Sequence record: NC_047885.1
Source: Escherichia phage chee24
Length of the DNA: 64,000 nucleotides
Strand: one strand, 5' to 3'
The notes beneath the pieces were generated by a model. That model had not been told where the DNA came from. It worked only from the letters and a program-made list of their open reading frames with translations, and ran no database searches. Of the stretch, positions 971-10,374 are shown piece after piece (within the stretch, counting starts at the first letter, position 1; every line of letters starts with the position of its first letter). The translations under genes were made by a program, and so were the position numbers.

Positions 971-1092
971 TTTACTTATTATGTAGGCCGCCTGGAGGCT
1001 ACCAACCCCACGGCTGACAAAGAAGTTTGCGAGACTTCTCTTAAAAGCCAGAATAGACCCGCCGGTCTATCGGAACCTACATAATAAGTAAA
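971..1092. repeat. perfect 17-bp inverted repeat (TTTACTTATTATGTAGG / CCTACATAATAAGTAAA) flanking an 88-bp core
   Basis: Arms at 971-987 and 1076-1092 are exact reverse complements; core contains a further hairpin AGAAGT-TTGCGAG-ACTTCT. Confidence 0.8.
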
Positions 1093-1104
1093 CTTTATAG
1101 TGTC

Positions 1105-1226
1105 ATTCTAGGCAGGACTCGAACCTGCTATCACTTGTGCGGACTTACGAGAACCATTCTTTCACTCGAATCGAACGAGCTTCTGCCCTCGCCAAGCTGG
1201 TTTCCCCCATCAACCACGCTAGAATG
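1105..1226 (-). ncRNA. tRNA-like element, possible pseudo-tRNA or disrupted tRNA
   Basis: Canonical T-arm GCAGG-TTCGAGT-CCTGC at 1111-1128 and 7-bp acceptor-like pairing between 1105-1111 and 1219-1225, but span is too long and no clean anticodon arm was found. Confidence 0.25.
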
Positions 1227-1347
1227 TTAGATTGTTTTCAGTGCAAGAGTCCGAGTCTTGGACACGACCGCTTCGCAAGTACATAGGCAGCTTATCATGA
1301 GTCAGCACTTCCGAATTGCTAGCTCCGTGTTCTGCACTGAAATTTTA

Positions 1348-1992: not shown

Positions 1993-2094
1993 GCTTGTTT
2001 CCTCAGTTATTAATGAAAATGGTATCTGTGGCTGAATTCGATGTCAGCAATGATAGCTGGTTGGCTACCGGTTTACTTAACTCTACACAGAATT

Positions 2095-3584: not shown

Positions 3585-3665
3585 TGGCAAACCCACTAGG
3601 ACTCGAACCTAGACCGTACGGTTTTGGAGACCGACATGCTGTCCAGTAACACTCTAGGAATGCAG
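3585..3665 (-). ncRNA. tRNA-like element with Trp-like anticodon loop (CTCCAAA) but no acceptor-stem pairing
   Basis: T-arm CTAGG-TTCGAGT-CCTAG and 3' CCA present; no complementary 5' strand found within tRNA distance. Confidence 0.3.
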
Positions 3666-3669
3666 AAAT

Positions 3670-3763
3670 TGGTACACCCACGGAGAATTGAACTCCGATT
3701 CTCAGATTGAACTCCGATTCTCAGATTGAAATCCTGATGTCCTAGCCATTAGACGATAGGTGT
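3670..3763 (-). tRNA. tRNA-Glu-like gene (anticodon UUC) with a 19-bp tandem duplication at the variable-loop position
   Basis: Removing one repeat copy gives a 75-nt cloverleaf (acceptor ACACCTA/TGGGTGT, D-arm GTCT-AATGGCTA-GGAC, anticodon stem TCAGG/TCTGA, T-arm CGGAG-TTCAATT-CTCCG); as encoded it is 94 nt. Confidence 0.45.
3687..3730. repeat. perfect 19-bp tandem duplication (ATTGAACTCCGATTCTCAG x2) plus a 6-bp partial third copy
   Basis: Exact copies at 3687-3705 and 3706-3724. Confidence 0.85.
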
Positions 3764-5534: not shown

Positions 5535-6030
5535 GAAAATTTTTCAAGTTTTCGGTAGACATCTCATCCACATCTACAGGAGAAACAAATCCATTTAATT
5601 GTCTAGCAAATTTTTCACCAGCAGGATCATTATCCCCAACAGCTACCAATTTAAAAGGTAGTAATTTCAATTGCTTTAACAACGCTTTTCCTGGAGAAGA
5701 ACCCAACATTGCCAGGGCTGGATAACCAGCGTTATGTAATGCTACGGCCTTAAATACAGATTCCGCAACCAATACTACTTTTTCATCCCCATTGAGAGTT
5801 TCCAGCCCCCATACACACTGTGTAGTAGAATAAGTAAAATACTTAGCTTCAAAAGGAGATTTACCATGACCTTTTGGAGCAGAAGGATTATAAGTCTGAT
5901 AGCCTCTCAACATCCCAGAGAAGTCATACAATGGGACTGTTAGCCATCCTTCCGGACTTAACCAGCAATGATATTTATCTGTATCAAACCCTCTAGATAA
6001 GAGATGTTCTGTTAGTTCATCAACAGTCAT
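5512..6030 (-). CDS. TOPRIM-domain protein, primase-like paralog lacking a zinc finger (172 aa)
   Basis: VVLVAESVFKAVAL and VAVGDNDPAG motifs (Glu plus DxD) align with the TOPRIM region of the primase at 37630-38520. Confidence 0.55.
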   Translation of the reverse strand: MTVDELTEHLLSRGFDTDKYHCWLSPEGWLTVPLYDFSGMLRGYQTYNPSAPKGHGKSPFEAKYFTYSTTQCVWGLETLNGDEKVVLVAESVFKAVALHNAGYPALAMLGSSPGKALLKQLKLLPFKLVAVGDNDPAGEKFARQLNGFVSPVDVDEMSTENLKNFLAMKLNF

Positions 6031-6058
6031 ATTAGATTCCTCTCAAATTTATAAATAT

Positions 6059-6087
6059 ATTATACAGAGGATTTAGCATTCAAGCAA
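6059..6087 (-). promoter_or_regulatory. sigma70-like early promoter (minus sense TTGCTT-17-TATAAT) for 5512-6030
   Basis: Plus-strand ATTATA 6059-6064 and AAGCAA 6082-6087. Confidence 0.55.
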
Positions 6088-6165
6088 TTGAATTTTTTAA
6101 CTTTTTAGAGGAAAATCACAGGATGCTTACGGGTAGCAGGTAAGTGGTCAGGACCGAAATTTGTG

Positions 6166-9095: not shown

Positions 9096-9597
9096 TTTAA
9101 GTATTTTTAAGAACTCTCGTAAAAACTCTTAAAAATACAGACGATACCGGGAGAGTCATAAGTCTCACTCATTAAGTATTTCAAGACAAAATACAGTAAC
9201 GTCTATTATTTTCCAGTTTAAGTCAAGGTGACTTAGTGGTTATGTCCTGCGGTATACTGAGGACTAGGTTAGGTTAGGGTCATGACTCCCCACCTTTTTG
9301 CTGCTACTCAACAGGAGTTATCGCGAATTACCTGTGCTATTGTGCACCATTAGTGGCATCTCTCATGCCAGCATTTCCCACTTTGTGGATAGTTTGAAAA
9401 ACTACTCCGATATGGAGAAAGAACTTCACTATCCTAGAATACCTTCTAAAGTTCTTCTTTAGCCTGGACATAGTTAAATCGTAATAAAACTATTCAGCAG
9501 ACTGGTTGGTTAGTCTGGAACCAACTACCGCGTGGTTTAGGCAGTGCGCAACTAACCTCGGAAGCTTTTACATTAAAAGCACCAGTTATCCAGTTCT

Positions 9598-9670
9598 TAC
9601 CGACCGTAGGATTCGAACCTACATCTTCCACCAGTTACGGCTTGATAATACCGTTTTATACTAGATCGGC
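9598..9670 (-). ncRNA. tRNA-like element (canonical acceptor stem and T-arm, irregular core)
   Basis: Acceptor GCCGATC/GGTCGGT and T-arm GTAGG-TTCGAAT-CCTAC; no standard anticodon arm identified. Confidence 0.3.
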
Positions 9671-9893
9671 AGTGTTACTACATAAGTGATTTCCACACCC
9701 CACTATCAGTAAATTAGAGAAGAGTTTAGGGGAGAGGTTTCAGACGCCCCATTTTACACGTTCTAGCCACTAACCGGGATTGCCGCCCCCTGTGTACTAG
9801 TTTTCCAACTAACCCACCGACTCTATTCAATGCGCTCCGGTTGGGATTCTGCACTCAGCGTAATCGGCTCGCTGTTCTCTAATTTATGAATAT

Positions 9894-9922
9894 ATTATAC
9901 AGAATTTATAAGCATTTAGCAA
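9894..9922 (-). promoter_or_regulatory. sigma70-like early promoter (minus sense TTGCTA-17-TATAAT)
   Basis: Plus-strand ATTATA 9894-9899 and TAGCAA 9917-9922; points into the 9100-9700 region, tRNA-Arg and the SPFH gene. Confidence 0.55.
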
Positions 9923-9930
9923 ATAAATTT

Positions 9931-10374
9931 TTAATTAAATTCGCCAGCAATCTGAGCAGCAGTACCACCATCATAACGCCCAGGAAATTCTTCCTTAATC
10001 GCTTTCATCAGCATACCTTTTGTAATTCCAGGGTTTAGCTTAACTAATTCTGCAAAGTATTTACGAATCTCAGTATCAGATAACTGAGGAGGCAGATACT
10101 CCTGCAACCACTTATTTAGAATGTATTCATACTGAGTGGACTGCAAGCTATAACTATCAAGATCTTGACCATGAAGTTTAGCTTTCATCTGGTTAATGCT
10201 TTTTAGTTGAGCTTTGAGATAAGACACAAATTGTTCAGAAGTGATGAAATCTTTATCAATACGCTGAAGATCCCCGATTATGGTCTGATAGCTTTTAGCG
10301 ACTTCTTTATCAGAACCATTAAACTTAGAATCCTGCAAAGCTCTACGCAAAACATCTAAAATATTCTCTTCCAT
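9931..10374 (-). CDS. GatB/YqeY-domain protein (147 aa)
   Basis: C-terminal YLPPQLSDTEI...GRYDGGTAAQIA resembles the YqeY family signature. Confidence 0.55.
   Translation of the reverse strand: MEENILDVLRRALQDSKFNGSDKEVAKSYQTIIGDLQRIDKDFITSEQFVSYLKAQLKSINQMKAKLHGQDLDSYSLQSTQYEYILNKWLQEYLPPQLSDTEIRKYFAELVKLNPGITKGMLMKAIKEEFPGRYDGGTAAQIAGEFN

What the first reader, a model, noticed from the sequence alone, without database searches (positions are those of the whole stretch)
1105..1226. tRNA-like elements with canonical T-arms but broken cores
Three elements (1105-1226, 3585-3665, 9598-9670) carry perfect TTCGA-type T-arms, and two of them a 3' CCA, in the same orientation and spacing as the real tRNAs. 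Hand folding found no canonical acceptor or anticodon arms in them. They could be decaying tRNA pseudogenes, tRNAs with inserts, or tRNA-derived RNAs with new roles.
Basis: partly seen in the sequence, partly recalled or inferred. Interest (0 to 1): 0.45.

Follow-up and report, generated by a model that had tools for sequence, protein, structure and literature searches.

The report
Known T5 tRNA-like stable RNAs
The three tRNA-looking stretches in this T5-like phage are already-annotated features: one working-looking tRNA-Trp and two "tRNA-like stable RNAs" of unknown function. One of these, RNA2, proves to be a conserved, widespread tRNA-shaped RNA whose anticodon arm is replaced by a three-way junction.

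Summary
The window is a T5-like phage, 100% identical to "T5-like pork27". All three elements lie on the minus strand in the early tRNA gene region and match features annotated in T5 reference records since about 2004.

- **Element 1 (1101-1225)** is T5 "RNA2, tRNA-like stable RNA with unknown functions".
- **Element 2 (3585-3661)** is tRNA-Trp(CCA). ARAGORN and Rfam both call it, so the "broken core" was a hand-folding problem caused by two conserved U·U mismatches in the acceptor stem.
- **Element 3 (9598-9670)** is a tRNA-shaped module inside the ~0.7-0.8 kb "RNAX" stable RNA. It passes the Rfam tRNA threshold only because the model skips its irregular, fast-diverging anticodon arm.

None is a decaying pseudogene.

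New here: RNA2 belongs to a family absent from Rfam. It occurs in Demerecviridae, in ~165-kb Acinetobacter-type phages and in large tRNA arrays on 0.9-1.5 Mb contigs. Covariation is very strong (24 of 30 pairs change on both sides). The fold has acceptor, D and T arms, with the anticodon arm replaced by a sequence-conserved three-way junction carrying a second T-loop hairpin.

Function remains unknown. I favour a non-decoding tRNA mimic that is matured like a tRNA.

The parts
1101..1225 (-). Element 1 = RNA2 (rna2), a 125-nt tRNA-shaped stable RNA. Orthologous to T5 AY543070 misc_RNA 'RNA2, tRNA-like stable RNA with unknown functions'.
   Evidence: Alignment to T5 and BF23 records. Covariance model R1 scores it 154 bits. 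Covariation counts.
1219..1225 (-). RNA2 acceptor stem, 5' strand AUUCUAG. It pairs with 1105-1111 (CUAGAAU), followed by discriminator G (1104) and ACA (1101-1103) instead of CCA.
   Evidence: All 7 pairs change on both sides across the family, 95% paired. 3' ends listed.
1198..1216 (-). RNA2 D arm: UGGUU / AACCA with loop GAUGGGGGA containing GG.
   Evidence: All 5 pairs covary, 96% paired.
1133..1197 (-). RNA2 replacement for the anticodon arm. Stem GCUUG (1193-1197) / CAAGU (1133-1137) encloses a three-way junction: J1 GCGAGGGCAGAA (1181-1192); hairpin A GCUCG[UUCGAUU]CGAGU (1164-1180), a second T-loop hairpin; J2 GAAAGAA (1157-1163); and hairpin B UGG[UUCUCGUAAGU]CCG (1140-1156).
   Evidence: Outer stem 5/5 pairs covary, 100% paired. 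Hairpin A 4/5 covary. Interior ambiguous: hairpin B (3 bp, no double changes) versus J1 GGGY / RUCC (C-G<->U-A covariation, 3 exceptions). Junction sequence conserved in all lineages.
1112..1128 (-). RNA2 T arm GCAGG[UUCGAGU]CCUGC.
   Evidence: 3/5 pairs covary, 98.5% paired. Motif scan.
3585..3661 (-). Element 2 = tRNA-Trp(CCA) with encoded CCA, G73, A1-U72 and conserved tandem U2.U71/U3.U70 mismatches.
   Evidence: ARAGORN. Rfam 34.1 bits with alignment. Annotated tRNA-Trp in the deposited record. Klebsiella-phage homolog keeps both U.U mismatches while 6:67, 7:66 and the T stem covary.
9598..9670 (-). Element 3 = tRNA-shaped module (acceptor, D and T arms; irregular anticodon arm; no CCA) inside the RNAX stable RNA.
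   Evidence: Rfam 34.5 bits with the anticodon arm skipped. T stem covaries with Epseptimavirus homologs. 9/18 differences fall in the anticodon arm versus 9/55 elsewhere, p=0.009.
9096..9887 (-). RNAX region: a long non-coding transcript running from a strong sigma-70 promoter to the 5' end of tRNA-Arg(UCU). Annotated in T5 and DT571/2 as 'stable RNA with unknown functions'. The 5' boundary is approximate.
   Evidence: T5 and DT571/2 annotations. Promoter TTGCTA-17-TATAAT at 9894-9922, minus strand. No Rfam family other than the tRNA hit.
Acceptor UCUGUG/CACAGA, T-like arm GCUGA[CAUCGAAU]UCAGC, 3' U-ACCA, directly 3' of tRNA-Asn.
   Evidence: T5 and BF23 annotation 'putative tRNA-like RNA'. 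Fold z=-2.5. G-C to A-U compensatory change in the T-like stem in L035. Not detected by ARAGORN or Rfam.
980..1082 (-). RNAIV, a 103-nt cloverleaf-like stable RNA immediately 3' of RNA2. It has a 10-bp closing stem and three hairpins, the middle one with the 7-nt loop CUCGCAA.
   Evidence: T5 annotation. Fold z=-3.35, 0/200 shuffles as stable. Compensatory changes among T5-like phages.

Best explanation
The three loci are three different, already-catalogued products of the T5-family early tRNA operons. They are not decaying genes.

**Element 2** is a functional-looking tRNA-Trp(CCA). Its acceptor stem carries a conserved tandem U.U mismatch.

**Element 1** is RNA2, a tRNA-shaped RNA occupying a normal 'tRNA slot' in the array.
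- Shown: it has covarying acceptor, D and T arms. The anticodon arm is replaced by a 5-bp stem capped by a sequence-conserved three-way junction that contains a second T-loop hairpin.
- Inferred: it is cut out of the polycistronic transcript by the tRNA maturation machinery. RNase P would act at the 5' end, 3' trimming would follow, and the CCA-adding enzyme would act where CCA is not encoded.
- Inferred: this gives a stable RNA that cannot decode. It acts as a tRNA mimic, with the acceptor/T-arm shell supplying processing, stability and entry to tRNA-binding partners. The conserved junction would be the specific effector surface, binding or titrating a conserved host tRNA-handling or tRNA-targeting factor.

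**Element 3** is a similar tRNA-derived structural module inside the long RNAX transcript. It has lost decoding constraint on its anticodon arm. It most likely serves as a processing or stability (or protein-binding) module of RNAX.

**How the confidence splits.** The 0.75 given applies to the identities and to the RNA2 architecture (about 0.9 for those alone). The decoy/titration function on its own deserves only about 0.25.
For: **Identity.**
- The window is 100% identical to pork27.
- Base-for-base alignment places element 1 on T5/BF23 'rna2'.
- T5, T5 st0, DT571/2 and BF23 records annotate RNA2, RNAIV, rna3, tRNAW and RNAX at the matching positions.

**Element 2.** Supported.

**RNA2 structure.**
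- Manual alignment shows complete acceptor covariation: AUUCUAG/CUAGAAU, AGACAAU/AUUGUCU, UACGGGG/UCCCGUA, GACUUUG/CAAAGUC, ACUGACC/GGUCAGU and GGGGCGG/UCGCUCC.
- Model R1 separates 17 lineages at 57-157 bits from ordinary tRNAs at <=33 bits.
- 97.6% of cells are paired and 24/30 pairs change on both sides. The covariation score is 0.515 against 0.149 for shuffles (0/500 reach it) and <=0.10 for slid controls.
- RNAalifold on an unfitted MAFFT alignment recovers the acceptor, the replacement stem and the T arm.

**tRNA-slot context.**
- RNA2 is followed after 6 nt by tRNA-Gly in BF23.
- It is preceded after 3 nt by tRNA-Leu in the Klebsiella phage, and follows directly after a tRNA's CCA in L012 and L045.
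- It sits inside a 47-tRNA array in L045 and between tRNA-Asp and tRNA-Cys in L044.
- CCA is encoded in the Pantoea and Klebsiella versions.

**Not host-derived.** There is no match in 5,426 E. coli genomes.

**Element 3.** Supported.
Against: **No expression, processing or binding data were available here.** The 'stable RNA' status rests on the GenBank annotations.

**Arguments against a tRNA-like 3' end.**
- The T5-type RNA2 ends in G-ACA, whereas 12 of 13 ordinary tRNAs in the window encode CCA.
- The 3' triplet is not conserved across the family.
- The acceptor sequence and discriminator vary freely. G3.U70 appears only in L044. No single aminoacylation identity is conserved.

**Weak points in the structure.**
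- Acinetobacter-type members (L007, L012, L039) have only weak, AU-rich acceptor pairing.
- The interior of the junction is not resolved.
- The structural alignment was fitted to the model, which inflates pairing percentages.

**Dispensability.** T5 variants lacking this whole region are viable (PMC11464382), and DT571/2 lacks RNA2. Any function is therefore accessory.

**The proposed target is pure inference.** No partner gene is consistently linked. No antisense target exists in the window.
Confidence: 0.75

Rival explanations
1. Decaying tRNA pseudogenes: remnants of tRNA genes that have lost function and persist only because they are young.
For: tRNA finders miss element 1. Element 3's anticodon arm is irregular and diverges about five times faster than the rest. 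The region is deletion-prone and dispensable. BF23's copy of the Trp slot has a changed anticodon loop and is not called as a tRNA (PMC10644984).
Against: RNA2 shows compensatory changes in 24/30 pairs and a sequence-invariant junction across Demerecviridae genera, ~165-kb phages and Mb-scale contigs. Element 2's mismatches are conserved while neighbouring pairs covary. Element 3's T stem covaries and its acceptor and D arms are conserved between genera.
Confidence: 0.05
2. Ordinary decoding tRNAs that merely carry an insert or intron. After removal of the insert, element 1 (and element 3) would become normal tRNAs.
For: The tRNA-slot position and the canonical acceptor, D and T arms. Epseptimavirus copies of element 3 are annotated tRNA-Sec(UCA)/tRNA-OTHER. 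Hairpin B contains a CUCGUAA stretch that looks like an anticodon loop.
Against: In RNA2 the 55 nt inside the replacement stem are far too short for a group I intron, and removing them leaves no 7-nt loop. Position '33' of the CUCGUAA-like stretch is U/C/A/G across lineages, which is incompatible with the universal U33. The insert itself is the most sequence-conserved part of the RNA, the opposite of an intron. Rfam's tRNA model gives no hit even at E<=10. Element 3's anticodon stem has 2 of 5 mismatches in the window and a 6-7 nt irregular loop in Epseptimavirus.
Confidence: 0.05
3. Pure cis-acting punctuation. The tRNA-like folds exist only to recruit RNase P or 3' processing, cutting the polycistronic early transcripts and stabilising neighbouring mRNA or tRNA ends. 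The excised RNAs would have no trans function.
For: All elements sit at junctions between ORFs, tRNAs and other stable RNAs in long operons. Element 3 lies ~215 nt from the RNAX start and lacks CCA. Precedents from my own knowledge: the mitochondrial tRNA punctuation model and mascRNA.
Against: A processing signal needs only the acceptor/T minihelix. That does not explain the near-invariant junction sequence of RNA2 in phages of unrelated hosts and in cellular tRNA arrays. It also does not explain why RNA2 occurs between tRNAs that need no extra punctuation.
Confidence: 0.2
4. RNA2 and the element 3 module are ligands of a phage YqeY-like (GatB-tail-like, tRNA-binding) protein, forming a dedicated RNP.
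For: The gene immediately upstream of the RNAX promoter (window 9931-10374) hits Pfam YqeY at E=1.8e-5. It is 29% identical to a clear YqeY protein (E=1e-15) lying ~200 nt upstream of the RNA2-like gene of L010. A 151-aa ORF two genes from the L039 member hits GatB_Yqey at E=1e-4. In Vibrio phage River4 the YqeY gene sits inside the tRNA array.
Against: Both weaker Pfam hits are below the curated cut-off. ORFs flanking other members (L007, L012, L055) show no YqeY signal. YqeY neighbourhoods in Brevundimonas, Pseudomonas, Aeromonas and Vibrio phages contain no RNA2-like RNA. T5 st0 keeps RNA2 although its deletion removes RNAX and disrupts the neighbouring T5.081 region.
Confidence: 0.1

Closest known systems
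Bacteriophage T5/BF23 'RNA2' (rna2) misc_RNA, GenBank AY543070, AY692264, AJ604530
   Same: Orthologous. About 97% identical, at the same position between ORF T5.067 and RNAIV, with the same 125-nt extent. It is annotated 'tRNA-like stable RNA with unknown functions'.
   Different: The window copy has one extra G in the D loop and a few substitutions. In BF23 a tRNA-Gly(GCC) plus ~140 nt is inserted right after it. The records give no structure, family distribution or function.
Canonical tRNA (Rfam RF00005), specifically phage and bacterial tRNA-Trp
   Same: Element 2 has every tRNA feature, plus A1-U72, G73 and a CCA anticodon. From my own knowledge, that is the bacterial TrpRS identity set. 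Elements 1 and 3 share the acceptor, D and T arms.
   Different: Element 2 has conserved U2.U71/U3.U70 and is a different allele from T5's own tRNA-Trp. Element 1 has a 65-nt three-way-junction domain instead of a 17-nt anticodon arm. Element 3 has an irregular anticodon arm and no CCA.
Phage T4 stable RNAs species 1 and 2 (rnaC, rnaD)
   Same: Small stable RNAs of unknown function encoded at the end of a phage tRNA cluster, next to tRNA-Arg, with tRNA-like 3' parts (sequence).
   Different: Not homologous by the RNA2 covariance model: there is no hit to rnaC or rnaD in L036. They lack the conserved junction motif.
tmRNA tRNA-like domain
   Same: Acceptor stem and T arm are kept, and the anticodon arm is replaced by other RNA.
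   Different: RNA2 has no ORF, no pseudoknots and a full D stem. G3.U70 occurs in only one lineage (L044). ARAGORN and the Rfam tmRNA models give no hit.
Bacterial Y RNA-like YrlA tRNA mimics
   Same: Non-decoding RNAs that mimic the tRNA fold, with conserved D/T elbow nucleotides (own knowledge).
   Different: In YrlA the 5' and 3' ends lie in the Ro-binding stem on the anticodon side and the acceptor is closed. RNA2 has free acceptor ends and the novelty is on the anticodon side. No Rfam hit.
RNase P-processed tRNA-like regulatory RNAs of phages (P1/P7 C4, P4 CI)
   Same: A precedent, from my own knowledge, for phage RNAs that use a tRNA-like acceptor/T helix for RNase P maturation and other loops as effectors.
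   Different: Those act by antisense pairing to phage mRNAs. No complementary target for RNA2's conserved segments exists in this 64-kb window, and there is no sequence similarity.

Membership tests
Canonical tRNA (RF00005) - element 2 | Covariance-model score above the Rfam gathering cut-off, and a call by a tRNA finder | tested here: met
   34.1 bits against a cut-off of 29. ARAGORN calls tRNA-Trp(cca).
Canonical tRNA (RF00005) - element 2 | 7-bp acceptor stem, 7-nt anticodon loop with U33 and R37, T loop, 3' CCA | tested here: met
   Loop CUCCAAA, T loop UUCGAGU and G73-CCA are present. The acceptor has 5 standard pairs plus conserved U2.U71/U3.U70.
Canonical tRNA (RF00005) - element 2 | Aminoacylation and use in translation | not testable with these tools
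   The T5 record notes only that a CUA-anticodon version of T5's own (different) tRNA-Trp allele is not an amber suppressor. That is uninformative, because TrpRS reads the anticodon.
Canonical tRNA (RF00005) - element 1 | Covariance-model or ARAGORN detection | tested here: not met
   No tRNA hit even at E<=10 on a 391-nt slice. No ARAGORN call.
Canonical tRNA (RF00005) - element 1 | 5-bp anticodon stem with a 7-nt loop | tested here: not met
   The 5-bp stem encloses 55 nt forming a three-way junction.
Canonical tRNA (RF00005) - element 3 | Score above the gathering cut-off | tested here: met
   34.5 bits against 29.
Canonical tRNA (RF00005) - element 3 | Regular anticodon arm and 3' CCA | tested here: not met
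   The model skips the arm as an 18-nt insert. Only 3/5 pairs are possible. The 3' end is A-AGA.
T5-family RNA2 (tRNA-like stable RNA) | Orthology to the annotated rna2 of T5/BF23 (sequence, position, extent) | tested here: met
T5-family RNA2 (tRNA-like stable RNA) | Accumulates as a discrete stable RNA in infected cells | not testable with these tools
   Only the depositors' annotation says so. No paper in the searchable library describes it.
RNA2 structural family as defined here (model R1) | Acceptor, D arm, replacement stem, second T-loop hairpin, GAAAGAAUGG..GUAA..CC block and T arm | tested here: met
   154 bits. All helices covary.
tmRNA | G3.U70 acceptor, tag ORF, pseudoknots, detection by ARAGORN or Rfam | tested here: not met
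   The window's acceptor has U3-A70.
T4 rnaC/rnaD | Homology detectable by the covariance model or a shared motif | tested here: not met
   No R1 hit to L036 4909-5172. Motif absent.
T5 RNAX | Long non-coding stretch between promoter P16-17 and tRNA-Arg(UCU) containing the tRNA-like module | tested here: met

The most novel reading that the evidence does not exclude
RNA2 is the founding member of an uncurated, widespread class of tRNA-shaped RNAs in which the anticodon arm is replaced by a conserved three-way junction carrying a second T-loop ('double-elbow' tRNA mimic). The class is embedded as a regular slot in phage tRNA clusters of unrelated families and in giant cellular tRNA arrays. It would have a conserved non-decoding role, for example titrating or guiding a universal tRNA-handling or tRNA-targeting factor during infection. 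The structure and distribution are supported here. The function, and the claim that nobody has described the family, are not established.
Probability: 0.4. Interest if true: 0.65.

Novelty: already known. Interest (0 to 1): 0.4.

Why it matters
T5 is a model phage, and its tRNA region has recently been shown to carry anti-defence tRNAs: tRNA-Lys against PARIS and tRNA-Tyr against retron Eco7 (PMC11464382). The stable tRNA-like RNAs in the same operons have been listed as 'unknown function' for two decades.

RNA2 turns out to be a strongly covarying family with an invariant junction, spread well beyond T5-like phages. That makes it a concrete, testable candidate for a new kind of tRNA mimic.

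For annotation, the result is practical. These loci should be labelled RNA2, RNAIV, rna3 and RNAX, not 'hypothetical protein', 'tRNA-OTHER', 'tRNA-Sec' or 'pseudo-tRNA' as many records now do.

Tried and rejected
1. **Rfam.** Searched at permissive thresholds on small slices for RNA2, RNAIV, the upstream conserved stretch and RNAX. Nothing appeared but the tRNA hit in element 3.
2. **Homology of RNA2 to T4 rnaC/rnaD.** Rejected by the covariance model and a motif search.
3. **tmRNA or intron-containing tRNA readings.** Rejected.
4. **Minimum-free-energy fold of RNA2 alone.** Not significant (z=-1.17), and its interior pairing was contradicted by homologs. Comparative analysis was needed.
5. 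**YqeY-protein linkage.** Real in L010 and suggestive in T5-likes and L039, but absent near other members. No RNA2-like RNA lies near YqeY genes of four other phage groups. The search for related loci reached only close T5-like relatives.
6. **Antisense-target search in the window.** Only self matches.
7. **Host origin or a host copy in E. coli.** None.
8. **Literature searches.** No paper in the library describes these RNAs. The CRISPRi-ART, Azam et al., BF23 and Erwinia-phage papers do not mention them.
9. **Pattern false positives.** L038/L059, L040/L051, L041 and L042/L047/L058 were discarded by eye. L037 and L043 score only 19-27 bits and are left as uncertain.

Full report
**What the window is.** A 500-nt slice around element 1 is 100% identical to five "Bacteriophage T5-like" isolates (pork27 and others) and 96-98% identical to some 200 Tequintavirus and related genomes. 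The first 10 kb is the minus-strand early tRNA gene region.

**Checking the observation.**
- The T-arm motif GGTTCRANTCC occurs 13 times, all on the minus strand, against 0.13 expected.
- ARAGORN calls 3585-3661 tRNA-Trp(CCA) and 9597-9671 an odd "tRNA-Ser(ACT)". It calls nothing at 1105-1226.
- Rfam's tRNA model scores 34.1 and 34.5 bits (cut-off 29) for elements 2 and 3. It gives nothing for element 1, even at E<=10 on a short slice.
- Only element 2 carries a correctly placed CCA. Element 1 ends G-ACA and element 3 ends A-AGA, whereas 12 of 13 ordinary tRNAs in the window encode CCA.

**These are already annotated in reference records.**
- The T5 records AY543070 and AY692264, the BF23 tRNA-region record AJ604530 and DT571/2 carry misc_RNA features placed by the group that studied this region.
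- Alignment puts element 1 exactly on "rna2 / RNA2, tRNA-like stable RNA with unknown functions" (125 nt).
- Element 2 occupies the slot of "tRNAW (CCA)". The deposited pork27 record itself calls it tRNA-Trp.
- Element 3 lies inside "rnaX / RNAX, stable RNA with unknown functions". That feature is 719 nt in T5 and 636 nt in DT571/2, running from promoter P16-17 to tRNA-Arg(UCU).
- The equivalent promoter in the window is TTGCTA-17-TATAAT at 9894-9922.
These are rna3 ("putative tRNA-like RNA", window 2020-2092) and RNAIV (window 980-1082).
- I found no paper in the searchable library that describes these RNAs.

**Element 2.**
- The Rfam alignment shows a canonical anticodon loop (CUCCAAA), D and T arms, G73 and CCA.
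- The acceptor reads A1-U72, U2.U71, U3.U70, C4-G69, C5-G68, U6.G67, A7-U66.
- A Klebsiella-phage homolog, only 80% identical, keeps A1-U72 and both U.U mismatches. Meanwhile 6:67 and 7:66 change to C-G, and the T stem changes CUAGG/CCUAG to AGGAG/CUCCU. The mismatches are therefore maintained, not decay.
- From my own knowledge, A1-U72, G73 and the CCA anticodon are the bacterial TrpRS identity elements.
- T5's own tRNA-Trp is a different allele in the same slot. BF23's copy has the loop CUACAAA and is not called a tRNA.

**Element 1 (RNA2): structure.**
- Single-sequence folding is not significant (z=-1.17), and its interior pairs are contradicted by homologs. Comparative data were needed.
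- blastn found homologs in Epseptimavirus, Klebsiella (Sugarlandvirus), Pantoea, Pectobacterium and Acinetobacter phages.
- Pattern scans of IMG/VR, GTDB genomes and metagenomes added ~165-170-kb viral contigs (L010, L012, L027, L039), a 10-kb contig (L055) and two very large contigs: L044 at 882 kb and L045 at 1.46 Mb.
- The acceptor stem is different in every lineage yet always complementary. The stem directly after the D arm pairs with the segment just before the T arm and also covaries: GCUUG/CAAGU, GCCUG/CAGGU, CCCAU/AUGGG, AGACCA/UGGUCU and UCACU/AGUGA.
- I built covariance model R1 from four cleanly aligned sequences with this structure. It scores 17 lineages at 57-157 bits and ordinary tRNAs at <=33 bits.
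- On the resulting alignment of 27 distinct sequences:
  - 97.6% of cells are paired;
  - 24 of 30 pairs change on both sides;
  - the covariation score is 0.515, against 0.149 for shuffles (0/500 reach it) and <=0.10 for slid controls.
- That alignment is fitted to the model. RNAalifold on the unfitted MAFFT alignment nevertheless independently recovers the acceptor, the replacement stem and the T arm.
- Inside the junction two mutually exclusive options remain:
  - a 3-bp hairpin B (UGG/CCG), always pairable but with no double changes;
  - a helix between J1 GGGY and RUCC, whose terminal pair switches C-G to U-A in four lineages with three exceptions.
- Either option leaves one conserved GG free to dock on the second T loop. 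That docking is inference only.
- The unpaired junction nucleotides are the most conserved part of the RNA. They are GC.AGGG.AG, the loop UUCGAUU, UGAAAGAAUGG, the loop UUCNCGUAANN, and CCGCA.

**Element 1: context and what it implies.**
- Members always sit like tRNA genes:
  - 3-8 nt from neighbouring tRNAs;
  - within a 19-tRNA cluster in L012;
  - within a 47-tRNA array in L045;
  - between tRNA-Asp and tRNA-Cys in L044.
- CCA is encoded in the Pantoea and Klebsiella versions but not in others. Acceptor identity and discriminator are not conserved.
- The 55-nt interior cannot be an intron leaving an anticodon loop. The anticodon-like CUCGUAA has a variable "U33".
- The RNA is thus tRNA-shaped and very probably tRNA-processed, but it cannot decode.
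- T5 variants lacking the whole region are viable (PMC11464382), and DT571/2 lacks RNA2. The role is therefore accessory.
- It has no counterpart in 5,426 E. coli genomes, no Rfam family and no detectable homology to T4 rnaC/rnaD.

**Element 3.**
- Across Tequintavirus it is 92-100% conserved.
- Epseptimavirus homologs are annotated tRNA-Sec(UCA) or tRNA-OTHER and score 33 bits in Rfam. They keep the D arm and show a compensatory T-stem change (GUAGG/CCUAC to GUGGG/CCCAC).
- They differ at 9 of 18 anticodon-arm positions against 9 of 55 elsewhere (Fisher p=0.009).
- The anticodon arm is irregular in both groups.
- I read this as a tRNA-derived structural module of RNAX that has lost decoding constraint. 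It would plausibly act as an RNase P, stability or protein-binding module. That last step is inference.

**Search for a mechanism.**
- Gene neighbourhoods gave one lead.
  - A clear YqeY-like protein lies ~200 nt upstream of the L010 member. From my own knowledge, this is the tRNA-binding GatB tail-domain family.
  - The window ORF immediately upstream of the RNAX promoter (9931-10374) is its homolog, at 29% identity and Pfam YqeY E=1.8e-5, just under the cut-off.
  - A weak GatB_Yqey hit lies near the L039 member.
- The link is not general.
- No antisense target exists in the window.
- I therefore commit only to a non-decoding tRNA mimic whose shell provides maturation and stability and whose conserved junction is the effector. 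A decoy or titration role against a host tRNA-handling or tRNA-targeting factor is the most plausible but untested function. It is motivated by the proven anti-defence roles of neighbouring T5 tRNAs.

**Verdict.** The loci are known and annotated, so novelty is low for the finding as stated. One element is simply a tRNA. The family-level structure and distribution of RNA2, and its unknown function in a model phage, give it moderate interest.

Noticed in passing
window 2020-2092 (-): rna3: a 73-nt tRNA-like RNA directly 3' of tRNA-Asn. It has acceptor UCUGUG/CACAGA, an 8-nt T-like loop CAUCGAAU and an encoded U-ACCA end.
   Followed up: partly
window 980-1082 (-): RNAIV: a 103-nt cloverleaf-like RNA with a closing stem and three hairpins (fold z=-3.35). 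The middle hairpin has an anticodon-like 7-nt loop CUCGCAA. There are compensatory changes among T5-like phages, and hairpin 3 is replaced in Epseptimavirus.
   Followed up: partly
window 1227-1345 (-): An unannotated ~119-nt stretch between the T5.067-like ORF and RNA2. It is 97-100% conserved across T5-like phages and closed by a 10-bp stem UUUCAGUGCA/UGCACUGAAA. No Rfam match. It may be another stable RNA or a structured 3' UTR.
   Followed up: partly
window 3670-3763 (-): tRNA-Glu(UUC) is 94 nt instead of 77 nt as in T5/BF23. A 19-nt tandem duplication (GATTGAACTCCGATTCTCA x2 on the + strand) spans the variable region and T-stem 5' side. Rfam still scores it 47.5 bits, treating the copy as a variable-region insert.
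   Followed up: partly
window 9931-10374 (-): The ORF just upstream of the RNAX promoter is labelled 'recombination related exonuclease' in the pork27 record. It instead resembles YqeY/GatB-tail tRNA-binding domains (Pfam E=1.8e-5; 29% identity to a clear YqeY protein in L010).
   Followed up: partly
window 9727-9875 (-): The window's RNAX carries ~149 nt right after its promoter that T5 and DT571/2 lack. RNAX length is variable between close relatives (636-~790 nt), and in Epseptimavirus a 510-nt ORF sits between the tRNA-like module and tRNA-Arg.
   Followed up: no
L045 1-8283 (contig Ga0308158_10000004, 1.46 Mb): An 8.3-kb array of 47 tRNA genes, with many duplicated isoacceptors, on a Mb-scale contig. 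One slot (6023-6141) is occupied by an RNA2-family member. The organism was not identified.
   Followed up: no
L039 7053-7127; L012 5451-5523; L027 6751-6823; L007 3108-3338: The ~165-170-kb phages carrying RNA2-like RNAs also encode a CUA-anticodon (amber-suppressor-type) tRNA, directly adjacent to the RNA2-like gene in L039. Acinetobacter phage W16 has a 76-aa RF-1-domain protein immediately downstream of its RNA2-like gene.
   Followed up: no
L084 5881-5982 (+) (Vibrio phage River4): An unannotated 102-nt tRNA-like gene with acceptor AGUCGGG/CCCGACU, A-CCA, anticodon loop CUUAUAC (UAU) and a long extra arm. It is not an RNA2 family member.
   Followed up: no
L001 5667-5752 / L005 3178-3248 vs window 3585-3661: The slot between tRNA-Phe and tRNA-Glu holds two unrelated-looking tRNA-Trp alleles in different T5-like phages. 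Each has its own acceptor irregularity (T5 has U1.U72 and G3.U70). BF23's copy has its anticodon loop changed to CUACAAA.
   Followed up: partly
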